A DNA stretch of 64,000 bases from Gammaproteobacteria bacterium (lineage in GTDB: Bacteria; Pseudomonadota; Gammaproteobacteria; CBDBNL01; JAAOII01), in NCBI GenBank assembly GCA_965207945.1, contig OZ242303.1:61199-125198 (forward strand), read 5' to 3'. The notes under the pieces were generated by a model. It did not search any database. It worked only from the letters and a program-made list of their open reading frames with translations, and was not told the origin of the DNA. Of the stretch, positions 4,271-18,226 are shown piece after piece (position 1 is the first letter of the stretch; each line of letters begins with the position of its first letter). The position numbers and the translations under genes were made by a program.

Positions 4271-4407
4271 ATATGTATTATAGGGAAAACTTTATAAATG
4301 TGAGGCAATGTTAAGCATAGTTAGACATTATTTGCGGAAATTTTGGATTATTATTGCTCTAATCACTTGTAATTGAAGCATAAAGATCTATAAATAACTG
4401 TGTAATG

Positions 4408-4416
4408 TGGTATAAT
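4408..4416 (+). promoter_or_regulatory. Candidate extended -10 element (TGgTATAAT) for rpoD in the divergent guaB/rpoD intergenic region.
   Basis: The sequence tgtggTATAAT sits 38 nt upstream of the annotated ATG at 4454. I see no good -35 hexamer. Confidence 0.3.
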
Positions 4417-4453
4417 TATACCCCAATCGGCACCCTTTACATTAAATACATAA

Positions 4454-7117
4454 ATGATTGATAAACAGACAAGCGGAAAAGCAGCAGAGCCGCCTAAAAA
4501 AGATGCGGGCAAATCCTCTGGAAACTCCGCTACAAAACCCGCAATAAAGATTGCAAAGGTTGCGCGTAAAAGTGCAACAGCAAAAACATTGAAGGCATCA
4601 GAAGTGCTAAAGTCGTCGTCAAAGGCAGTAAAGCCATCAGGGGCGTCAAAGCCGTTAAGCAAGCAAGCCAAGCCAGTTGCGGTTAAAAAAGCAAAACCAG
4701 CTGCTTCCGCTTCTTCCAAGCCAGCGAAGGGAACAGCGAAGGGAACTAAGTCAGCTAAGCCCAAGTCAGCAGCACCTAAAGCAGTTGTTTCTAAGAAGAG
4801 TGCATCAAGTCCATCCAAGACGAGCAAACCTTCAACTACAGCTAATAAGAAGGCAAAACCCGTCACCAAGGCAGCTGCTAAACCATCAGCCAAGCCATCC
4901 GCTAAATCATCAACCAAATTAAAGTCAGGGTCAAAGCTGACATCACGCAATAAATCTAATACTAAACATAAAGAGGGGACAAAAATGTTATCTACAGCTA
5001 CAACAACCGCAAACAAAGCGGAAGAGACGAGAGTAATAAAAACGGCAGACGCTTTAAATAAAACGGGAAATAAAACGGGAAAGAAAGCCAGTAAAAGCGT
5101 ATCAGCTAAACCAGCAACTAAAGGAAAAACAAAAGCTAAAATTACTGCATCAAACCAGAAAGCAGCTACCAGTAAAAAGACATCGCAAGATTCATCAACA
5201 ACTAAAGGCAAGGGGTTTGATGATTATAAAATTAGCGCCAGGTTGGAAGAGCTAATAGCCAAAGGAAAAGAAGCAGGCAAGATTGGCAACGATGATATAG
5301 ACCAATGCATTGCAGATATAGTGGAAGACCATGAAGATATCAATGTAACCGAACTCACTTCCCATATAGCCGAAGGGCTGCGCTCTAATGATGTTGACGT
5401 TAAAGACGAAAGTGAAAGCGATTTGGATTATAACGTTAGCGGCTTGTATGACGATGATGATTCAAGCTCGGACGTAAAAGTAGATGCAGATAGTTTAGGG
5501 GATGCTCCTTCAAGCGGAAATTTCTTGGCAGGGAGTATAGATGATATGGACCACCTAAGCCCCGAGGAATTAACTGGACCAGGCAGAGGGGCAATAAGCG
5601 CTCCAATAAAAATGTATATGCGCCAGATGGGTTCTCATGCTCTGCTGGATCGTGAAGAAGAATTAACCTTAGCCAAAAGGATAGAACACAATATGCGTAG
5701 TGTGATGGGGCAGCTGGCTTATTTTCACTACGAAGTTCAGAAAGTAGTTGATAGCCATAATGCAGCTCATAAAGCCAAAGGTAAATTTAATGAGGTGTGC
5801 ATGGCGCTTTATCGTGAAGATGAAGTAGATATGACAGCTCAGATAGCTGAAGTAAAGAAGAACATGCCCAAGAGTGTTTCGGTGCAGAAGCGCCGCAGCA
5901 ATATCAGCCAACGCATGAAGAAGCTGCGCAGCGATATGAACGATATAATGACTCGCTTGGAAAGACAACTCAAGGCAGCCAAACTATCTTATCAAAATGG
6001 CGATGCTCTGGGTAAGGTAGCTCGGAAAAAACAAGAGCACCTGAGCCGCACTCTTTCTTTGATGAAACTGCAGCCCCATTACTATGAGGAGCTAATTTTA
6101 AATGCAGAAAACCTATTGCGTTCTATTTATAAGGCGGAAGAGGTTATAGAAAACATAGCAGTTGGCAAGGCGGGCTACGACAAAGAACTTATTCACGAAA
6201 AGGTAATATCCACTCCTCGCTATTTTACCTCTCTGGCAAAACGCACTGGACCTAAGGCGAAGATAATTGAAAAACATCTGAAAGAACTTGAAGATGCAGC
6301 CAGTGATTTGCTTATGGTAGTCATGGTATGTAATATGCCGTTAGATATGATTAAGAAATTGACTAAGAATATTCTCACCGCGAATCGCCAAGCAGATAAG
6401 GATAAAAAGAAAATGGTAGAGGCAAATTTAAGGTTGGTTATCTCAATTGCTAAAAGATATACTAATCGCGGACAACAATTGCTGGACTTAATCCAAGAAG
6501 GCAATATTGGATTGATGAAGGCAGTGGATAAGTTTGAATATAAAAGAGGATTCAAGTTCTCTACTTATGCTACTTGGTGGATAAGACAAGCAGTTACCCG
6601 CTCTATCGCCGACCAAGCGCGCACTATACGGGTGCCCGTCCACATGATAGAGACAATGAATAAACTCAGCCGTCTGCAAAGAACCGCCATGCAGAAATAT
6701 CAGAGAGAAGCAACTCCGCAAGAACTCGCAGTGGAGATGGAATTGCCAGAAGATAAAATCCACCGCATGCTGAAAATTGCTAAAGAGACAATTTCTACCG
6801 AGACCCCAGTGGGAGATGAGGAGGACGCAAGTTTGAAGGATTTTATTGAAGACACCCAAACCCTATCTCCTTATGAAACAACTCTAAAGACAAACCTAAA
6901 GACCGAGATGCATAAAGCAATTAGCTCTTTACCCGAGAAAGAGGCAAAGGTGTTGAGTATGAGATTTGGCTTGGAAACCAATAGCGACTATACATTGGAT
7001 GAGATTAGCCGCCAACTTTCGGTAACCCGTGAAAGAATTAGACAGATAGAATCCCGTGCCCTGCGCCGCCTGAATAATTTAGCTAATGTTGAAACAATAA
7101 AAGAATTTAGGGAATAA
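4454..7117 (+). CDS. rpoD: RNA polymerase sigma-70 (RpoD) with a ~250-aa Lys/Ala-rich histone-H1-like N-terminal extension. An alternative internal start at 4985 is possible.
   Basis: Regions 1.2 through 4 are conserved ([10 protein letters not shown], the [19 protein letters not shown] 2.4/-10 recognition segment, and the region 4 helix-turn-helix). The N-terminal 250 aa are KPAAK/KSAKP repeats, and the ORF stays open through them. Confidence 0.9.
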
Positions 7118-7259: not shown

Positions 7260-10200
7260 TCAATCCACCCACAACCTGGCATTGTAAAACATTGCTTGCC
7301 AAGGGGTTATATAAGAGGTTGCCACCTCCGCTTTTCTTTGTATGGCTGTGGCGGATTTATCATGCCAGCACTGATTCACTCTTCTTAACGTCCTTTCTGG
7401 ATGCGGCATTAATAGCGTAACCCTGCCATCTTTGGATGTCATACCGGCAATGCCATGCTCAGAACCATTGGGATTGAGCGGATAAGCGGGATTATCATTT
7501 CCCTGTCCGTCTGTATAAACCATTGCTGCTCGTTTCTTGTTAAGCGCCTGTTCGCCGTCCTTGCTCCTGCTAAAAGTTGCCATGCCTTCACCATGTGCCG
7601 AAGCAATTGGTATAACGCTACCTTCCATGCCTGTAAAAAATATACTTGGTGATTTGCATATTTTCACCATAACCGTACGTGCTTCAAACCTACGTGATTC
7701 GTTACGCTGGAAGCGGCAATTCCAATCCGCCCCTTCAATAATCTCCTGTAGGCGAGACAGCACCTGACAACCATTGCATATCCCCAGCGTAAAGGTATCC
7801 TTGCGTTGAAAGAATTGCTGAAACTCTTCTTTAAGTTTGGGATTATATAGAATGCTTGCCGCCCAACCAACTCCAGCGCCCAAAGCATCGCCGTAAGTAA
7901 AGCCGCCACAGAAAACTGCCCCTTTATAATCCTTCAATTTATCGGAGCCATCTTTTTTGAGGTCATTTATATGCACATCCACCGCCTCAAAACCCGCATT
8001 ATGAAAGGCAAGAGCGGTTTCTATATTACTATTCACTCCCTGTGTGCGCAAAATTGCAACCTTAGGACGGCTTTTGTTTAGCAGCTTTATGCTGTTATAG
8101 CTATTATATTTCCCCGCCATATCAAACTTAATATTCTCTTGAATTCCTTTATAGTTAAAATCTTCTATTAGGAGCGCTTCCTGTTTAACACACTGTGGAT
8201 TATCATCCCTGAGTTCACGTATATTATCTGAAACCTTGTTCCACAACGAACGCATTGCACTCATCTTTTTATCTATCAGAGTCCGTCCAGCACAGCTAAT
8301 TTCTATCCTATCTTTATCAATGGGGACGCCAAGCTTATGCACAACTAAATTATGTTGCTTTCCACGCTCTAATACCTTACTCTCATTCTCGGGCGCCACT
8401 TGGATAACAGCACCTGCCTCTTCACCAAATAGGGCGGTATACTCATTCTGCTGTTGTTTCATCATCCCAGTTAAATCAATGGATAGCCCGCAATTGGAAG
8501 CAAAAGCCATTTCACTTAACGTTGTCCATAACCCGCCATCCGACACATCATGATAGGCAAGCAATAACTTATCGTGCACTGCATCGCTAACAAAAGAAAA
8601 GAAGTTGGCAATATCCTTGGGCGACTCTATGTCCGCAGTTTCCCCCTCCCATTGTTGCATCACTTGTGCCAGCGCCGAACCCCCAAGACGATTACTGCCA
8701 TGCCGTGTGCTAACCAGCCACAAGGAGGGCAGCATATTTTTATAAGTGTCGGTATGTAATAGTGAGTTGTCAGCACCAGTGTTTTTATAAGTGTCGGTTT
8801 GCAATAGCGAGTTGTCAGCACCAGTGTTTTTATAAGTGTCGGTATGCAATAGTGAGTTATCGCCATCAATGTTTTTATAAGTGTCGGTTTGTAATAGTGG
8901 GTCAACCCCCAACCTGACATCTATTAGTGGCGCCAGCCCGCTCATTATCAAAGATAGAGGCGATATAACATTTTGCTTATCCCAGGAGGCAGACATAAAT
9001 AAAGAATCCTTGCCAACCGGTATAGCAAGCCCCAACTCCTGACACATTTCTTCAGTTAAAGTCCTAACCCCCTCATAGAGATTTGCCATCTGACCATCCT
9101 CATTGCTGGCAGCCATCCAGTTAGCACATAGTTTTATATCCTGTAGTTTCTTTATGCCGCTGGCAGCCAAATTAGTTACTACCTCTGCCAATGCCATACG
9201 CACCGCCGCTTTGGGATTGAGGATTGCCAAAGGAGTACGCTCACCAATTGCCGCCGCCTCACCACCAAACCCGCTAAAATCTGCCAAAGTGGCGGCATAA
9301 TCATTGATTGGCACTTGCCAGGGACCAACCATCTGCTCTCGCGCCGTCAGACCGCCAACAAACCTATCACCAATAGTAATTAGAAAGCCCTTGCTTGCCA
9401 CCGCTGGCAACTGCAGCACCTTCTCTGCATACTCACTAATCTCGCTAATGTTTGGTACCACAAAATCCTTAGTTTCAACTGGTACATAAGAGACGATAAT
9501 CTCCTTAGGTGTTTTAGGGAATAGAATTTCAAGGGGCAAGTTGATGGCATCGGTATCCCGACTATCTTCTTTATTCTCACGATTATCCTTATTATCCTGC
9601 TGCATCAGACGCAGTTCACCACTCTTGTTAGTTTTACCTATTACCTTGTAAGGAGCATTCTCACGCTGGCAGATTTTATCAAACTCATCCAAACGCTCTG
9701 GATCCACCGCCAGCAAAAATCTCTCTTGGCTTTCATTACTCCATACTTCTGCTGGAGACATAGAAGGATCCGCAACAGGAATATCACGCAGCTCAACCTC
9801 ACCACCACATTTGCCATCCTTCAACAGTTCCGCTACTGCGTTGCCGAGCCCTCCAGCTCCCAAGTCGTGTATAAAAATAATTGGGTTTTTCTTCCCCTGG
9901 CGCGAGCAGGCCTCAATCGCCTCTGCACATCTTTTTTCCGTCTCCGCATTATCACGTTGCACCGAAGCAAAATCTAACTCTACATTCTTCTTGCCGCCGC
10001 TACTTTTAAGGGAAGATACTGAACCACCACCAATCCCAATTCGTAATGCAGGTTCTCCCATAAGCACTAAATGCGCTCCCTCATCAATTTCCTCTGGCTT
10101 GATAGCTTGGTCGTTGCTAATCTCGCCCCAACCACCAGCAAGCATAATTGGTTTATGATAACCGTATTTGATACCATCTCTTTCACAACTTAGAGTGCGA

Positions 10201-11507: not shown

Positions 11508-11956
11508 TAGAGTAAAACTTTAATTGTAATTGTCTTATATCTATCCGCACGCAAACTCCCTAAAACTAACATATTCATTTAGCAAGCAAGGTTATTGAAA
11601 AAGTGCATTCATTGTAGCACTATTATATTACATTATAGAGATTTCAATCCTTGTAGTCATCGGTTGTATTGAATATTTCTGCCCGTTCTGTTTTATTGCT
11701 TTACCCTAAAAATAGAAGAATACTTACTTAATGGGAGATAGTATAATTCCCCTTGATAAAATTGTACTTCAGTTAGTCAGCAGACACCAAAAAACCTCTT
11801 CAGATTAAACGTCACTATGCAAAGATGATTAAAGAATTTTATATGGAGATATTTGAACCAGGCGCTATAATTTTCATGGTCATAATTAATTTTTTAATGT
11901 ATAATTAACGTTTTATTATTAATAAATTTTTATAAACCATACAAAGGAGTAGTACC

Positions 11957-12262
11957 ATGATTGAAGCAGTATTTATAAACAATGATGGAAAGATCGTAGA
12001 AGTTTCTGTGAGGAACATTTATGATATTTCCAATAAAATCCAACGATTAGTAAATGATAACAACTTCCCATTGCATGAAAGTGAGGAAGAAGCTACGAGG
12101 GCTGGAAGTTCGTATGATCGCATCTCCAGATCTGATATGAATGAGTGGACTGATGCCCGTAAGGAATTAATAAAGCAGGCAGATAGTAATCAAAGTTTAT
12201 GGATATTAATTTCTTTCTTTGATTCTTTGGCGGAAAAAGTTGGGATGCAGAACTATAAATAA
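11957..12262 (+). CDS. Hypothetical small protein (101 aa) at the left edge of the island.
   Basis: The ORF has a good AAGGAG Shine-Dalgarno 7 nt upstream. I see no recognisable domain. Confidence 0.4.
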   Translation: MIEAVFINNDGKIVEVSVRNIYDISNKIQRLVNDNNFPLHESEEEATRAGSSYDRISRSDMNEWTDARKELIKQADSNQSLWILISFFDSLAEKVGMQNYK

Positions 12263-12355
12263 TATAAATATTTTAAGGAGTATGTTGTTGATAAACTAGG
12301 AGGCTTATTCTAATACACTTTCTGCTAGTATATCTTTAACTTATAATATAAAGCA

Positions 12356-12718
12356 ATGAAAGAGAAAATGAAGTTTAATTACGGCAACGTTAGGCGCATA
12401 CCTGATAATCTATCTGGGGTTTATGCATTTTGGGTTTTCCCTGAGGCTATTAGTGTTTGGCGATGCCTTTATATTGGAAAAGCAGACGTTTGCTTAAAGA
12501 AAAGATTAAAAAATCACTGGGATAGAGAACCTAGTGTAGGGAAAGATTTTATTGATGATAGAGAGGTATACTCAGATGATTTGTACTTTTGTTACTATTC
12601 AAGGAGTTATCTAGATAAGCAAAAGGTACATAACTTGGAGAGTATGCTAATTAAAAAATGGGGGCCTGATAGTAATACTGTCAAAAAAATTAAGAAATTA
12701 AAGTATAATAGAAAGTGA
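12356..12718 (+). CDS. GIY-YIG nuclease-family protein (120 aa).
   Basis: The GIY-YIG motifs are visible: GVYAF…YIGKA…RLKNH, followed by a conserved Glu. Confidence 0.65.
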   Translation: MKEKMKFNYGNVRRIPDNLSGVYAFWVFPEAISVWRCLYIGKADVCLKKRLKNHWDREPSVGKDFIDDREVYSDDLYFCYYSRSYLDKQKVHNLESMLIKKWGPDSNTVKKIKKLKYNRK

Positions 12719-12754
12719 ATTTAGTAATAATTAACCGAAGAGGAAATTAATAAC

Positions 12755-14071
12755 ATGTCAATTACATTACCTGTGATAAGAGGTCAAATGGGGATACATA
12801 CATATTATGTGGCTACAATGTCTGCACAAGATGCGACATTATTAATAAAAATGCCAAGCATTGTACCTGGCTGGAATTCTATTGAAGCTAGAGCTCAAAG
12901 AACGGTGGATTCTAAAAGAGTTGAGAAGGGGTTATATCCTTACTTAACTAATAAAAGTGCCGATAGATTTTTTGGCTCTTTAATAGTTGGAGTTCAATAT
13001 CTGGAAGAGGCGGATACTAGTAGTAAGATAGACAAAAAAAAGAAAAAAATTGTTTTTGAACCTATCGAAAAATATGGGGATTTACCCGTTGCATATGACC
13101 AACCAGCCGAAAGAATGGGAATATTAACTATAAAAGATAGTAGTATACTAGTAGTTCCTTATGATGGACAGCATAGGTTATTAGGATTAAGGTATGCTAT
13201 TGAAGGAAGAAAAAACACAGGGGATGAGATTCGTTCAGGAGAAAACAATCTCTCGGTGGCTAAGGATATAATTTCTGTTATTCTTCTTCCATATAGCGTA
13301 GGAACTTCCAGAAATATATTTACCAAACTTAATAGATATTCTAAGCCAACCAGTGCTACCCAGAATTATATCACCGATGATGATGACTCTATAGCGAGCA
13401 TAGCAAGAAAAATAACAAATACGGTTATTAACCAAAAGAGAGACGATATTGATTTAGTTAATTGGATAAGCAATTCTTTAAAGAAGAAGGATGGTTACTT
13501 CACCACACTTGATACGATTTACAAATGCACAAAGGCAATAATAGAAGAGATAGCGTCTAAAAAAATTCTAACAGGTGAAAGATTGAAGGATGAACTGGAG
13601 AGGAAATATTTTAAAGCAGCAAAGGATACTTGGGAGTTTTTATTAAAAGAGATAGATGAGTTTAAGGATGCTTTAAAGAATAGAACTAAAGCGGGTGATG
13701 AAAATAGAATGCAGATACGCGAATATTCGTTGCTTGGGAAGCCAGTGCCTCAGCAATGCATAGTAGAGGCATTTTTAAAAATTATAAGAGATAAAAAGAT
13801 ATCAAAGGAAGAGGCTGTTAAAAGGTTAAATAAAATACCCTGGGATATAGGAAATCCGCTATGGGATAGCATACTGTGGCAAGGAGATGGGGATACAGGA
13901 AAAATATTGACCAAAGGTAAAAAAATTGCCATTGATCTAGTATCTTACATGTGTGGGGCAACCATGACAACTGCTCAAGAAAGTAATCTATTAGCAAGAT
14001 ATGAGGCTTTATTATCACCTGATGATAATAGGAGGGGAAAGTTACCTAATAAGTTGAATAAACGCAGCTAG
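12755..14071 (+). CDS. DGQHR-domain protein, DndB-like (ParB/sulfiredoxin fold).
   Basis: The N-terminus LPVIRGQMGIHTYYVATM matches the DndB PAIRG…YY signature, and the eponymous YDGQHRLLGL motif is present. 438 aa. Confidence 0.8.
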   Translation: MSITLPVIRGQMGIHTYYVATMSAQDATLLIKMPSIVPGWNSIEARAQRTVDSKRVEKGLYPYLTNKSADRFFGSLIVGVQYLEEADTSSKIDKKKKKIVFEPIEKYGDLPVAYDQPAERMGILTIKDSSILVVPYDGQHRLLGLRYAIEGRKNTGDEIRSGENNLSVAKDIISVILLPYSVGTSRNIFTKLNRYSKPTSATQNYITDDDDSIASIARKITNTVINQKRDDIDLVNWISNSLKKKDGYFTTLDTIYKCTKAIIEEIASKKILTGERLKDELERKYFKAAKDTWEFLLKEIDEFKDALKNRTKAGDENRMQIREYSLLGKPVPQQCIVEAFLKIIRDKKISKEEAVKRLNKIPWDIGNPLWDSILWQGDGDTGKILTKGKKIAIDLVSYMCGATMTTAQESNLLARYEALLSPDDNRRGKLPNKLNKRS

Positions 14072-15243
14072 TGGTTAGATCACTTTCTGCTGCCGTCCCT
14101 GCTACAGATAACATAATAGCGACAAGTGCGGAATTCCTTAATCCTATTAGCTTAAAAGAAAAAATATCACGCATCCAAGCAGACATAGAGGAAGCCTATT
14201 TTGAGAAGACCTGTCCGTGGGTTATTGCTTATTCCGGAGGGAAGGACTCTACTATGGTACTTCAGTTGGTCTGTGAGTTCTTATTATCCTTGCCCAAAGA
14301 CAAGCATAATAAAGAAATCCATATAGTGTCAAATGATACTCGTGTGGAGTCGCCCGTTATATCACAACATTTAGATAAAAGCTTGGAGTTACTCAAAAAA
14401 TTTCAAAAAGAACACTCGCTACCTATCAAGGTGCAGAAAACAGTGCCAGCAGAGAATGATTCTTTTTGGGTGAATCTCATAGGGCGTGGTTACATACCAC
14501 CGACTAGAGTGTTTAGGTGGTGTACTAGCAAGATGAAAATAGAACCAACCAACAAGTACATTAAGAACTTCATAGATAGGAATGGTGAAGTAGTCCTTTT
14601 ATTAGGGGTAAGGACAAGTGAATCAACTTCGCGCGGAAGATCTATTAAGAAGCACACCAATGACGATGGGACTAGGTATAACCCTCATAGTATGATGCCG
14701 AAGTGCTTAATATATAGACCGATTATAGATATAGAGAATGAAGAAATATGGCAGTTACTGCTGCAACGTCCTTCCCTTTGGGGTGGAAATAATCGCGAGC
14801 TAATTACTATTTACAGAAATGCTGCTGGTGGAGAATGCCCTACAGTTCTGTCCGAAGACGATGCCCCTTCTTGTGGGTCGTCATCTGTTAGGTTTGGTTG
14901 CTGGACGTGCACCGTTATTAGCAAAGATAGGAGCTTGGGCGGCCTAGTAGATTCTGGACTTGATTATCTAGAACCCTACATGAATTTTAGAGATTGGTTA
15001 ATAGAATTAAGAGAAGATGATGGCAATAGAACACCCGTGCGTAGAAATGGCCGTTGGAAGAAAAAAGAAAATGGTTCTACGGTTAAGGGACCATTTTTAA
15101 TAAGTATTCGCAAGGAGATATATAGTAGATTACTTGAATTAGAGAAAGAAGTAGGAGAGAAATTAATTACTAAGAGCGAAATTTTCTTAATAGAAAGAAT
15201 CTGGCGCCAAGATGAGAAAAAAGCAATCTGGCCAGTAAATTAA
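14071..15243 (+). CDS. PAPS-reductase-family PP-loop ATP pyrophosphatase, DndC/SspD/IbrA-like, with a C-terminal Cys cluster.
   Basis: The PP-loop VIAYSGGKDST is present, together with Cys motifs ECPTV…SCGSS…RFGCWTCT. The GTG start overlaps the upstream stop (TAGTG), consistent with translational coupling. Confidence 0.8.
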   Translation: MVRSLSAAVPATDNIIATSAEFLNPISLKEKISRIQADIEEAYFEKTCPWVIAYSGGKDSTMVLQLVCEFLLSLPKDKHNKEIHIVSNDTRVESPVISQHLDKSLELLKKFQKEHSLPIKVQKTVPAENDSFWVNLIGRGYIPPTRVFRWCTSKMKIEPTNKYIKNFIDRNGEVVLLLGVRTSESTSRGRSIKKHTNDDGTRYNPHSMMPKCLIYRPIIDIENEEIWQLLLQRPSLWGGNNRELITIYRNAAGGECPTVLSEDDAPSCGSSSVRFGCWTCTVISKDRSLGGLVDSGLDYLEPYMNFRDWLIELREDDGNRTPVRRNGRWKKKENGSTVKGPFLISIRKEIYSRLLELEKEVGEKLITKSEIFLIERIWRQDEKKAIWPVN

Positions 15244-15254
15244 GTAGTGTTATA

Positions 15255-17000
15255 GTGAAGAAAAATCCTTTTTCTGCCAAAGCTCTACCACTGTATGAAC
15301 TCTTTAATGGCTTTATGGCGGAGCACAATATAGAGTCATTTCTCATTCCACAATATCAGAGGTTCTACTCATGGAAACCTAAGCATGTGAAGGACCTTTT
15401 ATCAGATATAGCTATGGCTATAACTGATAATGAAGATGGTTTTTTTTTAGGACCCATTCTATTATCTAATTCCCCAGAATCCCAGAAGAGTATTTCAATA
15501 GTTGATGGTCAGCAGAGGATAATAACCACGTCCCTAATTTTAGGGGCATTAATGCATCATGTTTATAACTTGAAACAAGAGAACAATGAAGTTGCTATGC
15601 GCTGCCTTTGGGATTTACCCAAAGAACTCACAGATATAGCCCATATATCACCTGGCAATATACCAACTAAACTAAGCTTTTCTTTAGAAAATGATGATAC
15701 TTCTTATCAGCTGATGATATGTGATAATCAGGCATATATTTCAGGACCTATTAAAAAAGCTTATGAAAGTATAAATGCATTTTTTGCTGGGTACTCTTAT
15801 GAAGATACTTGTAAGTATATCAATTATCTCACTAATAAGGTGTTCTTTGTGGCAATAAAACCAGATGAACATGTCAAGCAAATAAACAAGATATTTGAAA
15901 CATTGAATGATAGAGGGATGCCTCTTAATCAAATAGAGTTATTTAAGAACTTTGCACTTAGTTATTTTAGCCCCCGTGACAAGAAATTTGATTTATTTGA
16001 AAAACTATACATGTGGCTAAATACTGTGGATTCTGTTGAAAGATATTTGGCTGTATATTCTATGCTGCACTATGATTATAAGACAGTTAAGCGTGAGAAA
16101 AATTTATACAGGTTATGGAAAAATAGAATCTATGAATATCCAAAGTCCGAGAGGAAGAGTCAAATGCGTATTATTCTTGATGACCTCTCATCCTCTCTTG
16201 AATATTACCAGGCGATCTCCAAAGAGGGCAGTTCGCTTTGGATGACAAGGTATAAAGGTGCAGCAATGAATGATGACAGAATGCTTGCTATGATTCAATT
16301 TTTGAGTAAATACAAAATTACTCATCCTATTCTTTTTGCTATAGTTAAAAGAGAACCTGGCTATAAGGTTTTGAAAAGCTGCTATCATATAATTTATTCC
16401 CTTTTAGCTAGAGTGTGGTTAATTCACTCTCTATCACGGGCTGGCAATTTGGAGGAAATATTAACCACTGTAGCATTAGGTATAAATAAGAAAGAAATTG
16501 AACTATCTCCTGATAATCTATATAAGAATATAGTTAAACAAGCTGGATCTCACTATACAGATATAACGGATGATAAACTATTTAGTACCAAGTTGGGCGT
16601 TATAGAATATCCAGGAAATGTGGATCCCCGCACTAAATTCATATTTACTGAGATAGTTAACTCAAATCAAAAAGAGATTAAGATTATGAAGGAAGATACC
16701 CTCAAGGTATCCCATGTATTGCCTAGGGATGAAGGGGAGCTCTCCGATTGGGGTGGCTTCCCTTTAGCGGATTACCTTACAAGCCGCCATAAATTAGGAA
16801 ACATGGTTTTATTAAATGGAGAAGCCCCTCGGGTTGTTAATAGTCAATCTTTTAAAGAAAAGAAAAAGATCTTTGCGGAATCTGATTTTGATATAACTAA
16901 AAATATATCTTTGGTGCATAATTGGGGTCCACAAGAGATCCAACAAAAGCAAAAAGAATACGCCCAGCAAATCACCCAAATACTTTCATTGCCCTCTTAA
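15255..17000 (+). CDS. DUF262 + DUF1524 protein (GmrSD/SspE-like putative modification-dependent or modification-sensing nuclease).
   Basis: The N-terminal DUF262 signature is IPQYQRFYSW…VDGQQRI. The C-terminal DUF1524 His-Me motif is VSHVLPRDEG…GN(M)VLLN. 581 aa, with a GTG start. Confidence 0.8.
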   Translation: MKKNPFSAKALPLYELFNGFMAEHNIESFLIPQYQRFYSWKPKHVKDLLSDIAMAITDNEDGFFLGPILLSNSPESQKSISIVDGQQRIITTSLILGALMHHVYNLKQENNEVAMRCLWDLPKELTDIAHISPGNIPTKLSFSLENDDTSYQLMICDNQAYISGPIKKAYESINAFFAGYSYEDTCKYINYLTNKVFFVAIKPDEHVKQINKIFETLNDRGMPLNQIELFKNFALSYFSPRDKKFDLFEKLYMWLNTVDSVERYLAVYSMLHYDYKTVKREKNLYRLWKNRIYEYPKSERKSQMRIILDDLSSSLEYYQAISKEGSSLWMTRYKGAAMNDDRMLAMIQFLSKYKITHPILFAIVKREPGYKVLKSCYHIIYSLLARVWLIHSLSRAGNLEEILTTVALGINKKEIELSPDNLYKNIVKQAGSHYTDITDDKLFSTKLGVIEYPGNVDPRTKFIFTEIVNSNQKEIKIMKEDTLKVSHVLPRDEGELSDWGGFPLADYLTSRHKLGNMVLLNGEAPRVVNSQSFKEKKKIFAESDFDITKNISLVHNWGPQEIQQKQKEYAQQITQILSLPS

Positions 17001-17158
17001 CTGTCATTATCTCTCAGCCAGTATAAATTATTCTGGCTTATAATTCTATAATACCTTTTATACAATTTACCCAATAATAATGCAGGCATACAACCTCCAC
17101 ACCATACCCCCCCAACCTCACCATCTTGCAATCCCAACATATAATATAATCCATATAT

Positions 17159-18226
17159 ATGAAAGATAAGATTAAGGTAGCTATTTATGGAGCTTCGGGT
17201 TATACCAGTTCGGAGTTGTTGCGGTTGCTTGAGCAGCATCCGAATGTGCAGGTTTGCGCGGTGGTGTCGCACTCGCAAGTTGGTAAGTGTTTGGGTGCGT
17301 TGCATCCCCATCTTGGTGAGGAGCTTGGCGCTATGGAGGCGATTTCTGCCGAGCAGGTTCCTGATTGTGATTGTGTATTTTTTGCTACGCCAGCGTGTGT
17401 TGCAATTAAGGAGGCGGGTAGGTTGTTAGATAAGGGGGTAAAAGTTATAGATTTGTCGCCCGATTTTCGGATTAAGGATGCCAAGTTATGGCAGCAGTGG
17501 TACGCAAAGGAGCATGGCGCGACTGATTTATTGGCAGAGGCGGTGTATGGTTTGCCTGAGGCGAATCGCGCTGCCATTAAGAAGGCGCGGCTTATTGCTA
17601 ATCCAGGTTGCTATGCAACTACGGTGCAGTTGGCATTGTTGCCGTCATTGCTATCCGCTAAGCATGGTGGGCAACTTGCAGGTAAGGAGTTAGTCGTGGA
17701 TGCCAAGTCCGGCGTTAGTGGGGCGGGTAAGAATCTGGCAACCGATCTTTTATTGGGTGAGGCGGGAGAGGATTTTACCTGCTATTCAGCGGAAGGGCAT
17801 AGGCATCAGCCAGAGATGGAGGAGTCATTACAAGAAAAGAGTGGAGTAAATGTGAAGCTACGTTTTGTTCCTCATTTATTGCCGCTGGTGCGTGGAATTT
17901 TTGTGGATATATATTTACCGCTTGGCAGTGGAAGTGATAACAATCCAGCTGCTGATGAATTAAGAAGCGTGTATAGTAAGTTTTATGCCGCCGAGCCGTT
18001 TGTGAAAGTATTGGCTAAGGGGCAGGCACCACATATTAAACATACTCGCGGGAGCAATCATTGTCATTTAGCTGTTTTCGCTGCTCCTGGTTCTACTTAT
18101 ATACAGGTGTGTGGAGTTTTGGATAACTTGGTTAAGGGGGCGTCTGGTCAGGCGATCCAGAATATGAATATTATTTTTGGTTTGGATGAGAAGGAGGGGC
18201 TGCAGCAGGCAGCGTTGACGCCTTAG
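17159..18226 (+). CDS. argC: N-acetyl-gamma-glutamyl-phosphate reductase.
   Basis: IAIYGASGYTSSELLRLLEQHP at the N-terminus and the catalytic-Cys region NPGCYAT. Confidence 0.9.
   Translation: MKDKIKVAIYGASGYTSSELLRLLEQHPNVQVCAVVSHSQVGKCLGALHPHLGEELGAMEAISAEQVPDCDCVFFATPACVAIKEAGRLLDKGVKVIDLSPDFRIKDAKLWQQWYAKEHGATDLLAEAVYGLPEANRAAIKKARLIANPGCYATTVQLALLPSLLSAKHGGQLAGKELVVDAKSGVSGAGKNLATDLLLGEAGEDFTCYSAEGHRHQPEMEESLQEKSGVNVKLRFVPHLLPLVRGIFVDIYLPLGSGSDNNPAADELRSVYSKFYAAEPFVKVLAKGQAPHIKHTRGSNHCHLAVFAAPGSTYIQVCGVLDNLVKGASGQAIQNMNIIFGLDEKEGLQQAALTP

What the first reader, a model, noticed from the sequence alone, without database searches (positions are those of the whole stretch)
12755..15243. 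DGQHR (DndB-like) and DndC-like genes are translationally coupled (TAGTG overlap) and the DndC-like protein is unusually short
The stop codon of the DGQHR gene overlaps the GTG start of the PAPS-reductase gene by 1 nt, which implies obligate co-expression and a probable complex. The DndC-like protein is 390 aa, against about 500 or more for canonical DndC. It retains the PP-loop and the Fe-S-type Cys cluster (CPTV…SCGSS…FGCWTC). In Dnd systems DndB is a regulator, not a tightly coupled partner. The tight pairing here resembles ParB-like + PAPS-reductase (IbrB/IbrA-type) two-component systems, whose function remains unknown.
Basis: partly seen in the sequence, partly recalled or inferred. Interest (0 to 1): 0.7.

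Follow-up and report, generated by a model that had tools for sequence, protein, structure and literature searches.

The report
DndD/E-less Dnd-like sulfur modification island
The overlapping gene pair is real but ordinary; it lies in a small acquired island that looks like an untested, stripped-down relative of the bacterial systems that put sulfur into the DNA backbone to tell self from virus.

Summary
The DGQHR gene (12755-14071) ends in TAG, which shares one base with the only possible start (GTG 14071) of a 390-aa DndC-family gene.

- One- and four-base dndB/dndC overlaps also occur in canonical dnd operons.
- This overlap is absent from every relative, including the closest one (2-nt spacer).
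- In deeper relatives the DGQHR gene is not next to dndC at all.

The protein is short because its whole clade lacks the C-terminal region that canonical DndC uses to bind DndD. The clade also lacks DndD and DndE.

The conserved partner of this short DndC is the downstream gene (15255-17000). It is a full-length homologue of DndI, the phosphorothioate-sensing DUF262+DUF1524 nickase.

The DGQHR protein belongs with the upstream GIY-YIG nuclease (12356-12718). That two-gene module also follows sspBCD in one genome and stands without DndC in another.

Best reading (inferred): a compact phosphorothioation-type modification and restriction island that uses housekeeping IscS. It is a new variant of a known kind. 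No paper in the searched library describes it, and it is not IbrAB-like.

The parts
11844..11905 (+). Two sigma-70-like promoter matches upstream of the first ORF of the island. They may mark the operon start.
   Evidence: These are the only + strand promoter-like sites ahead of the gene block. They are consensus matches only, and the region has fewer such sites than its shuffles, so the evidence is weak.
11957..12262 (+). ORF101, a small lineage-specific gene of unknown function at the head of the island.
   Evidence: No hit in Pfam, NCBIfam, PADLOC or PHROGs. It is 89% identical in L081 with dN/dS 0.14, so it is a real gene. It is not conserved in L083 or L098.
12356..12718 (+). Stand-alone GIY-YIG nuclease (120 aa), the partner of the DGQHR protein.
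   Evidence: phmmer links it to a cluster of about 110-aa ORFs in 7 loci. Members of that cluster hit PF01541/PF20815. The family profile hits the UvrC N-terminal GIY-YIG domain at E 6.7e-6. Y23, Y39, G41, R50, E95 and N107 are invariant. dN/dS is 0.16.
12755..14071 (+). DGQHR / DndB-superfamily ParB-Srx-fold protein (438 aa).
14069..14073 (+). TAGTG stop/start overlap (1 nt).
   Evidence: It is unique to this genome among the relatives examined.
14071..15243 (+). Short DndC: a PP-loop ATP pyrophosphatase / Fe-S sulfurtransferase that lacks the DndD-docking C-terminus.
   Evidence: TIGR03183 356 bits over profile positions 2-365 of 447. PRK06850 positions 9-378 of 505. PADLOC DndC E 1.4e-120. 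It sits in the monophyletic GmrSD-linked clade carrying the GRGYIPPTR signature. The AF2 model has pLDDT 77.5 and its core resembles TtuA, CysH and NcsA.
15255..17000 (+). DndI-like DUF262 (ParB-like NTPase, DGQQR) + DUF1524 (HNH/His-Me nickase) protein, 581 aa.
   Evidence: GmrSD_N E 1e-31 and GmrSD_C E 8e-14. PADLOC Orf5 (=DndI) E 7e-51 over the full length, and HEC-06 E 8e-65. The family profile matches DndI (PDB 9JFL) at E 7.8e-41 end to end. It follows the short DndC in every clade member that has downstream sequence.

Best explanation
The two genes are the middle of a horizontally acquired island of 4-5 genes (about 11.9-17.0 kb). Its GC content is 0.34-0.38 against 0.42-0.45 in the flanks, and it lies between purL and argC. 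It encodes a DndD/DndE-less relative of the Dnd phosphorothioation-restriction systems and is built from two modules.

Module 1, the conserved core, is a short DndC plus a DndI-like DUF262+DUF1524 protein. In most relatives a cysteine desulfurase gene precedes it. That gene is missing here, so housekeeping IscS presumably supplies the sulfur.

Module 2 is an accessory pair: a GIY-YIG nuclease plus the DGQHR (DndB-superfamily) protein. In this lineage module 2 sits in front of module 1. That arrangement creates the DGQHR-to-DndC junction, and its 1-nt overlap is local operon compaction, not a conserved coupling.

The DndC is short because the clade has lost the C-terminal DndD-binding region (the Sp-DndD-like module and the terminal helix) together with DndD and DndE.

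Inferred mechanism:
1. IscS persulfide loads the DndC cysteines.
2. DndC adenylates a backbone phosphate through its PP-loop and substitutes sulfur, marking host DNA with phosphorothioate without DndDE. TdpC, which alone makes phosphorothioate, is a reported precedent.
3. The DndI-like protein scans DNA. Phosphorothioate stimulates its NTPase and releases it from self DNA, while unmarked invading DNA is nicked by its HNH domain.
4. GIY-YIG plus DGQHR is a second effector built on the same logic, a ParB-like NTPase sensor with a nuclease in trans.
For: Shown by tool results:
- All 13 GmrSD-linked short DndCs (12 genome loci plus the window) form one clade, separate from canonical DndC.
- A GmrSD_N+GmrSD_C gene follows DndC in all of them and in 7 further distinct metagenomic loci. 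Most junctions are tight: -4, -1, -7 to -26, or +4/+11; one is +36.
- A cysteine desulfurase (PF00266) is adjacent in at least 7 of the genome loci.
- No DndD, DndE or DndA homologue occurs anywhere in the 64-kb window.
- No Sp-DndD module occurs in any of the 20 clade sequences checked (the window and 19 loci). It is fused inside DndC in 15 of 17 canonical loci and is a separate ORF in 20 of 26 type-b loci. Canonical C-termini also hit PF20306.
- Published pull-downs place the DndD-binding site at DndC residues 433-482 plus the C-terminal helix (PMC12193691).
- All five island ORFs are under purifying selection against L081, with dN/dS 0.13-0.26.
- The GIY-YIG + DGQHR pair also occurs directly after SspB/SspC/SspD-like genes in Nitrosomonas nitrosa, where SspE normally sits (L102). 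It also occurs without DndC in L106.
- The Tyr that senses phosphorothioate in DndI (Y25, in PTYQR) aligns with Y34 (PQYQR) of the window protein.

From the literature: DndI and SspE are phosphorothioate-sensing DUF262+DUF1524 nickases (PMC11662687). TdpC alone suffices for phosphorothioate synthesis (stated in PMC12914056).
Against: - No chemistry was tested. Phosphorothioate is inferred only from DndC-family membership and the linkage to a desulfurase and a DndI-like gene.
- Nothing shows what gives sequence specificity or DNA handling once DndD and DndE are gone.
- The window's HNH motif reads SHVLP rather than the family's EHxLP. Some relatives have HYVLP or ERVAS. Nuclease activity may therefore be altered.
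- Y34 is not invariant in the family.
- Canonical DndB is a transcriptional regulator, so the DGQHR protein could simply regulate.
- IscS was not seen, because only 64 kb of the genome is available.
- The TdpC paper could not be read, so whether TdpC resembles this short DndC is unknown.
Confidence: 0.55

Rival explanations
1. The chemistry is the same but the roles are swapped. An NTPase-plus-nickase set stands in for the missing DndD (ATPase) and DndE (binds nicked DNA) inside the modification machine. That set is either the DndI-like protein or the GIY-YIG/DGQHR pair. The other set is the restriction arm.
For: Known phosphorothioate modification modules pair the PP-loop enzyme with an NTPase and a nick-related protein: DndD/DndE, or SspC with the SspB nickase (PMC12707154). 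The island has two such sets. The DndC-to-DndI-like junction is nearly always an overlap. That pair also occurs without GIY-YIG/DGQHR in L008, L011, L016, L017, L022 and L096.
Against: The solved DndI and SspE act as restriction sensors, not modification factors (PMC11662687). L096 carries three tandem DndI-like paralogues, one without the catalytic His, which is typical of effector diversification. The DndI-like proteins diverge much faster than DndC in the same loci, 30-38% against 58-65% identity. GIY-YIG/DGQHR also follows a complete SspB/SspC/SspD-like gene set that needs no extra modification factor.
Confidence: 0.2
2. The DGQHR protein and the PAPS-reductase-like protein form an obligate, translationally coupled two-component complex of the IbrB/IbrA type with unknown function.
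For: The 1-nt overlap exists and there is no Shine-Dalgarno motif. Both a ParB-fold protein and a PAPS-reductase-fold protein are present.
Against: The overlap is absent in all 6 same-order relatives. The adjacency is absent in the deeper clade. There is no DUF3440 hit, and DndC models score far above any other family. DGQHR travels with GIY-YIG rather than with DndC. The two genes have very different divergence from L081, dS 0.49 against 0.11, so they have separate histories.
Confidence: 0.05
3. The island is a decaying remnant of a canonical dndBCDE operon that lost dndD and dndE and the 3' end of dndC, and it is non-functional.
For: DndD and DndE are absent, and DndC lacks about 80-125 C-terminal profile positions.
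Against: The short form is a monophyletic clade. It is found in MAGs labelled Chloroflexota, Nitrospirales, Alpha- and Gammaproteobacteria and Thermodesulfobacteriota, and it always has the same partner. All catalytic motifs are invariant. dN/dS is 0.13-0.26. 48 of the top 120 database clusters carry the clade signature.
Confidence: 0.04
4. The enzyme makes a sulfur (or other adenylation-dependent) modification that is not backbone phosphorothioate, for example a thio-base, or it acts on RNA. Alternatively the island is mainly a type IV (modification-dependent) restriction locus in which DndC has another role.
For: The structural neighbours of the core are tRNA thiolases such as TtuA and NcsA. 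GmrSD-family enzymes classically attack modified phage DNA (PMC4619093). No chemistry was tested.
Against: The protein passes the DndC equivalog cut-off and keeps the FGCWTC Cys dyad, which one paper describes as unique to DndC. The best solved homologue of the partner is DndI, not GmrSD or BrxU. The desulfurase linkage mirrors dndA.
Confidence: 0.12

Closest known systems
IscS-DndBCDE-DndI of Salmonella enterica Cerro 87 (PMC11662687)
   Same: It has a DndC-family sulfurtransferase, a DndB-superfamily DGQHR protein, and a full-length DndI-type DUF262+DUF1524 protein with DGQQR, the aligned phosphorothioate-sensing Tyr and the HNH His. The desulfurase is supplied in trans.
   Different: The window island has no DndD (ABC ATPase) and no DndE. 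Its DndC lacks the DndD-binding C-terminus. Its DGQHR protein is not a DndB equivalog and is paired with a GIY-YIG nuclease. There is no DndFGH.
SspABCD-SspE
   Same: A PP-loop sulfurtransferase is genetically linked to a DUF262+DUF1524 phosphorothioate-sensing nickase. The GIY-YIG/DGQHR pair is found in SspE's position after SspB/SspC/SspD-like genes in Nitrosomonas nitrosa.
   Different: The enzyme here is of DndC type (E 1e-120), not SspD type (E 2.5e-12, N-terminus only). There is no SspB (DUF4007) or SspC. SspE matches only the N-terminal 100 residues and short patches of the DndI-like protein.
TdpABC (An et al., Nat Chem Biol 2025; known here only from citing papers and my recollection)
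   Same: It is a precedent for phosphorothioate synthesis by a single gene product without DndD/E or SspB/C (PMC12914056).
   Different: Its restriction partners, TdpA and TdpB, are as I recall a hexameric translocase and a nuclease, not DUF262/HNH. Homology between TdpC and this short DndC could not be tested: the paper is not held, and no TdpC-like chain was found in the PDB searches.
Type-b short-DndC systems: short DndC + Sp-DndD small protein (PF20306) + DndD-like ABC ATPase + DndE-HerA fusion
   Same: This is the sister clade of short (about 375-400 aa) DndC proteins with the same core and Cys motifs.
   Different: Those loci keep the DndD-docking module as a separate ORF and keep the DndD/DndE-type partners. 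The window clade has none of these and has a DndI-like gene instead.
IbrA/IbrB (PAPS reductase-DUF3440 + ParB-like)
   Same: A PAPS-reductase-fold protein lies next to a ParB-fold protein.
   Different: There is no DUF3440 domain. The protein carries the DndC-specific Cys cluster and passes the DndC HMM cut-off. The adjacent DGQHR gene is not a conserved neighbour.

Membership tests
DndC (TIGR03183 equivalog) | HMM score above the curated cut-off. | tested here: met
   356.1 bits against a cut-off of 290.4. PADLOC DndC E 1.4e-120.
DndC | PP-loop SGGKDS and the conserved Cys set, including the FGCWTC dyad. | tested here: met
   S55-S60, C151, C256, C268, C277 and C280 are invariant in 21 family members.
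DndC (canonical) | C-terminal DndD-binding region (Sp-DndD-like module plus terminal helix). | tested here: not met
   The match ends at profile position 365 of 447 (TIGR03183) and 378 of 505 (PRK06850). No Sp-DndD-like segment occurs in the window or in any of the clade loci checked. The binding region is defined in PMC12193691.
Canonical Dnd modification system | Linked DndD/CxC ABC ATPase plus DndE. | tested here: not met
   No homologue in the 64-kb window at E<=1e-5. None lies next to any clade member. The rest of the genome was not available.
DndB (TIGR03233 equivalog) | HMM score above the cut-off. | tested here: not met
   62.1 bits against a cut-off of 328.
DGQHR domain / DndB superfamily (TIGR03187, PF14072) | Domain HMM above the cut-off, with the DGQHR, QR and FxxxN motifs. 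| tested here: met
   81.5 bits against 58.85. PF14072 E 6.8e-34. The motifs are invariant.
DndI / GmrSD-type DUF262+DUF1524 | N-terminal DUF262 with DGQQR, C-terminal DUF1524 His-Me nuclease, and full-length similarity to DndI. | tested here: met
   Pfam finds both domains. PADLOC Orf5 (=DndI) E 7e-51. The family profile matches 9JFL at E 7.8e-41 over residues 3-596. The catalytic His is kept, but the motif is SHVLP rather than EHxLP.
DndI / SspE function | Phosphorothioate-stimulated NTPase and nicking of unmodified DNA. | not testable with these tools
   This needs biochemistry. The only computational pointer is that DndI Y25 aligns with window Y34.
GIY-YIG nuclease | The GIY...YIG motifs and the catalytic Arg, Glu and Asn. 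| tested here: met
   The window ORF has no direct Pfam hit. Its family members hit PF01541/PF20815. The family profile hits the UvrC GIY-YIG domain at E 6.7e-6. Y23, Y39, G41, R50, E95 and N107 are invariant.
IbrA | PAPS-reductase domain followed by DUF3440. | tested here: not met
   PF01507 is the only Pfam hit and there is no DUF3440.
CysH / assimilatory PAPS reductase | About 240-aa enzyme with a C-terminal ECGLH motif, scoring best on PAPS-reductase models. | tested here: not met
   PF01507 scores only 41 bits against 356 for DndC. No ECGLH motif is visible in the sequence. The structural match covers only the PP-loop core, with TMq 0.31-0.37.
SspD | Best match to SspD models and linkage to SspB/SspC. 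| tested here: not met
   PADLOC SspD E 2.5e-12 over residues 51-193 only. There is no DUF4007 and no SspC nearby.

The most novel reading that the evidence does not exclude
The GRGYIPPTR-type short DndC, together with a DndI-like protein, would be a self-contained fifth kind of DNA phosphorothioation system after Dnd, Ssp, Tdp and BREX type 4. It would work without any DndD/DndE or SspB/SspC-type scanning ATPase. The GIY-YIG + DGQHR pair would be a previously unrecognised split analogue of SspE/DndI, a ParB-like NTPase sensor plus a nuclease in trans, that can plug into either Dnd-type or Ssp-type modification modules.
Probability: 0.4. Interest if true: 0.7.

Novelty: new variant of a known kind. 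Interest (0 to 1): 0.5.

Why it matters
If the island does make phosphorothioate, it shows that a DndC-type enzyme can mark DNA without the DndD/DndE scanning complex that current models treat as the obligatory core (PMC10853773). It would offer a minimal two-to-four-gene system for studying how target sites are chosen and how DUF262-type sensors read sulfur marks.

It would also assign a likely function to the DGQHR + GIY-YIG pair, which occurs with two different modification modules. Surveys anchored on dndD/dndE or on a P-loop NTPase neighbour (PMC10853773, PMC12914056) would tend to miss this clade. It accounts for 48 of the 120 closest DndC-like clusters in the protein database.

Tried and rejected
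- PDB sequence and profile searches with the short DndC found no solved DndC, SspD or TdpC homologue. Foldseek found only generic PP-loop enzymes.
- No tool predicts complexes, so the proposed co-fold of the two proteins could not be run.
- The TdpC paper is not held. A search for TdpA/B/C returned unrelated neurology papers.
- The metagenome scan with the single protein added only one close relative.
- Flanking repeats were sought as insertion scars. A 14-mer plus the first six codons are shared between the 5' ends of ORF120 and argC. The 14-mer is absent in L081 at the same site, so it was not accepted as evidence.
- I rejected CysH, IbrA and SspD membership, and I rejected the decayed-operon idea. 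The reasons are in the membership table and the rival explanations.
- The first Sp-DndD HMM was contaminated by a DndI-like fragment from L001. It was rebuilt without clade loci.
Full report
OBSERVATION. The ORFs are as described. DGQHR is 12755-14071 (438 aa, TAG at 14069-71). The DndC-like ORF is 14071-15243 (390 aa), and the junction reads TAGTG. In the DndC frame a TAA at 14059-61 closes the frame, and GTG 14071 is the only ATG/GTG/TTG before the PP-loop. The next in-frame ATG is M62, after SGGKDS, so no alternative gene model removes the overlap. The 96%-identical relative L081 starts with ATG one codon downstream of the aligned position. No Shine-Dalgarno motif lies within 20 nt, so termination-reinitiation is plausible. 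A third gene starts 11 nt after DndC (15255-17000). The block is AT-rich (GC 0.34-0.38 against 0.42-0.45) and lies between purL and argC.

WHAT THE PROTEINS ARE.
- The 390-aa protein passes the DndC equivalog model: TIGR03183 gives 356 bits against a cut-off of 290. It matches only profile positions 2-365 of 447, and 9-378 of 505 in PRK06850. PADLOC DndC gives E 1e-120, SspD only 2.5e-12, and PF01507 41 bits. It is DndC-type, not CysH, SspD or IbrA (no DUF3440 hit).
- The DGQHR protein is in the DndB superfamily (PF14072, TIGR03187) but fails the DndB equivalog model, 62 bits against 328.
- The third gene has GmrSD_N + GmrSD_C domains, that is DUF262+DUF1524. It hits PADLOC 'Orf5' over its full length at E 7e-51. 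Orf5 is the old name of DndI (PMC4198939). A profile of its family matches the DndI crystal-structure sequence 9JFL end to end at E 7.8e-41. SspE matches only in patches.
- The 120-aa ORF upstream (12356-12718) belongs to a family of stand-alone GIY-YIG nucleases. Family members hit PF01541/PF20815, the family profile hits the UvrC N-terminal domain at E 6.7e-6, and the catalytic Y, Y, R, E and N are invariant.

COMPARATIVE GENOMICS. A database search shows that about 375-400 aa is the normal length for a large DndC subfamily. The top 120 hits are 363-470 aa at 48-96% identity. I fetched 80 genome loci, clustered their ORFs and annotated representatives. Three architectures emerge:
- (a) (cysteine desulfurase)-short DndC-DndI-like-(GIY-YIG-DGQHR).
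- (b) short DndC + a 63-93-aa 'Sp-DndD' protein (PF20306) + a DndD-like ABC ATPase + a DndE-HerA fusion.
- (c) canonical DndB-long DndC-DndD-DndE-(DndA).

In an NJ tree of the DndC core, all GmrSD-linked proteins, the window's included, form one clade. That clade is sister to (b) and separate from (c). It is marked by GRGYIPPTR in 11 of 12 members and in none of the others. 48 of the top 120 database clusters carry that motif.

Close relatives recovered by exact look-up have the window's order, GIY-YIG-DGQHR-DndC-DndI-like. These are L081, L082, L083, L098/99 and L100, plus the partial contig L084. L096/97 instead have DndC followed by three DndI-like paralogues. L105 has the common order DndC-DndI-like-GIY-YIG-DGQHR. 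The window is therefore a circular permutation of the common order and has no linked desulfurase.

THE OVERLAP. The DGQHR-to-DndC junction is -1 nt in the window. In the relatives it is +2 (L081), +9 (L083), +24 (L098), +26 (L100), +29 (L084) and +74 (L082). In the common gene order the two genes are not adjacent at all. By contrast the DndC-to-DndI-like junction is tight in nearly every locus, mostly -4 or -1 and otherwise -7 to -26 or +4/+11, with one at +36. Canonical dndB-dndC junctions also overlap: TAATG in Acinetobacter ursingii L066, ATGA in L057 and L063, TAAATG in L065. The overlap is thus ordinary operon compaction. It is specific to this genome and says nothing special about a DGQHR-DndC complex.

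WHY THE PROTEIN IS SHORT. The missing segment corresponds to the C-terminal part of canonical DndC. That part hits PF20306 Sp-DndD in 3 of 5 canonical proteins tested. With an HMM built from the type-b small ORFs, the module lies inside the DndC ORF in 15 of 17 canonical loci. It is a separate downstream ORF in 20 of 26 type-b loci. It is absent from all 20 clade-a sequences checked, the window included. Independently, AF3 modelling with pull-downs on E. coli B7A proteins showed that DndD binds DndC residues 433-482 and the terminal helix, and that L458D/E462A/R471A abolish binding (PMC12193691). The clade also lacks DndD and DndE. None occurs in the 64-kb window or next to any member. I infer that the docking region was lost together with its partner.

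MODULARITY. Against L081, all five ORFs are under purifying selection (dN/dS 0.13-0.26), but dS differs sharply between genes:

| Gene | dS against L081 |
|---|---|
| GIY-YIG | 1.16 |
| DGQHR | 0.49 |
| ORF101 | 0.37 |
| DndC | 0.11 |
| DndI-like | 0.02 |
| argC (host flank) | 0.12 |
| apaH (host flank) | 0.17 |

The GIY-YIG/DGQHR pair therefore has a different history from DndC/DndI-like. Homologues of the DGQHR protein were traced in other genomes. In Nitrosomonas nitrosa (L102) the pair follows DUF4007 (SspB), a 1164-aa protein with no Pfam hit (SspC by position only) and a 263-aa PAPS reductase (SspD), exactly where SspE normally sits. In L106 the pair has no DndC within 8 kb. In L104 it is again a pair. 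In L103 DGQHR is alone. Conversely, DndC/DndI-like occurs without the pair in six loci. The natural partner of DGQHR is therefore the GIY-YIG nuclease, and the natural partner of the short DndC is the DndI-like protein.

MECHANISM (INFERRED). Sulfur chemistry is implied by DndC membership, the invariant Cys set and the linked desulfurase in relatives. The most economical model has four steps:
1. IscS persulfide passes sulfur to the short DndC.
2. DndC adenylates and thiolates the backbone phosphate on its own. Citing papers report that TdpC alone makes phosphorothioate (PMC12914056).
3. The DndI-like protein discriminates self from non-self as DndI does: phosphorothioate stimulates the NTPase and release, and unmarked DNA is nicked (PMC11662687).
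4. GIY-YIG/DGQHR acts as a second, split effector of the same design.

The main alternative is that one of the two NTPase+nickase sets replaces DndD/E in the modification step.

Uncertainties remain. No chemistry was tested. Nothing accounts for target specificity. The window's HNH motif is SHVLP rather than EHxLP. IscS was not seen.

LITERATURE. The Dnd reappraisal by Rakesh et al. anchors on DndD/DndE and states that the modification module would be non-functional without them (PMC10853773), so it does not cover this clade. Yuan et al. required a P-loop NTPase neighbour and mention a 'DUF262' dndC neighbourhood only as a putative new system (PMC12914056). A sponge-archaeon paper noted dndA- and dndC-like genes together with 'dndB-like' genes carrying DUF262/DUF1524 domains (PMC6790972). 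Searches combining DndC with GmrSD, DUF262, DUF1524, DGQHR, GIY-YIG or DndI found no paper that describes or tests the cassette.

VERDICT. The flagged features are ordinary, but the locus is an uncharacterised DndD/E-less variant of the phosphorothioate modification-restriction systems. Interest is 0.5.

Noticed in passing
window 12338-12375 and 17136-17178: The 5' flank and first six codons of the GIY-YIG gene (AACTTATAATATAA...ATGAAAGAGAAAATGAAG) resemble those of argC (AACATATAATATAA...ATGAAAGATAAGATTAAG). This could be an insertion scar or chance in AT-rich DNA. The 14-mer is absent upstream of the GIY-YIG gene in L081, which has the same insertion site.
   Followed up: partly
L082 5563-6063 and 11041-12138: The four-gene cassette lies between two fragments of a GSDH (PF07995) gene of 166 aa and 365 aa. 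It looks as if it inserted into and split that gene, which suggests the cassette is mobile.
   Followed up: no
L096 4287-9879 (also L097): The short DndC is followed by three tandem DndI-like paralogues of 609, 640 and 586 aa. The third has lost the catalytic His (ERVAS). A divergent Mrr_cat gene lies upstream.
   Followed up: partly
window about 16710-16725 (SHVLP in the DndI-like protein): The HNH motif is SHVLP in the window and L081, EHxLP in most relatives, and HYVLP in L098 and L100. The acidic residue before the catalytic His is not conserved in this sub-lineage.
   Followed up: partly
window 11957-17000 compared with L081: Divergence is mosaic. dS is 1.16 for GIY-YIG, 0.49 for DGQHR, 0.37 for ORF101, 0.11 for DndC and 0.02 for DndI-like, against 0.12-0.17 for the flanking host genes. 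This implies recombinational replacement of the left half of the island and a very recent common origin of the right half.
   Followed up: partly
window 11957-12262: ORF101 has no family match in any library. It is conserved (89% identity, dN/dS 0.14) only in the closest relative and sits just downstream of the only promoter-like sites. It may be a lineage-specific regulator or accessory gene.
   Followed up: partly
window 14045-14050 (DGQHR residues L430-P431): The DGQHR family has an invariant Leu-Pro dipeptide about 6-10 residues from the C-terminus, in an otherwise variable tail. It could be a docking peptide.
   Followed up: no
L102 1450-8266 (Nitrosomonas nitrosa): The gene order is DUF4007 (SspB), a 1164-aa protein, a 263-aa PAPS reductase (SspD-like), GIY-YIG, then DGQHR. 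The GIY-YIG/DGQHR pair occupies the place SspE normally has in an ssp cluster.
   Followed up: partly
window 8737-8899 (inside purL, minus strand): A 45-nt tandem repeat (3.6 copies, 89% matches) encodes a repeated LLHTDTYKN(T/I)G(A/D)DNS-like insert in the 1415-aa PurL.
   Followed up: partly
window 4454-5250: RpoD carries a roughly 250-aa Lys/Ala/Ser-rich N-terminal extension. The 282-aa ORF on the opposite strand (4363-5211) is probably a shadow ORF of this low-complexity region.
   Followed up: no
L001-L022 (record titles): Some clade-a loci come from sponge-associated MAGs (Ca. Spongiihabitans L001; perhaps several OZ24xxxx assemblies, whose source I did not check). One close protein homologue (P0002) is annotated as from an Endozoicomonadaceae MAG. 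Sponge archaeal symbionts were reported to carry similar genes (PMC6790972). This may be an ecological enrichment.
   Followed up: no
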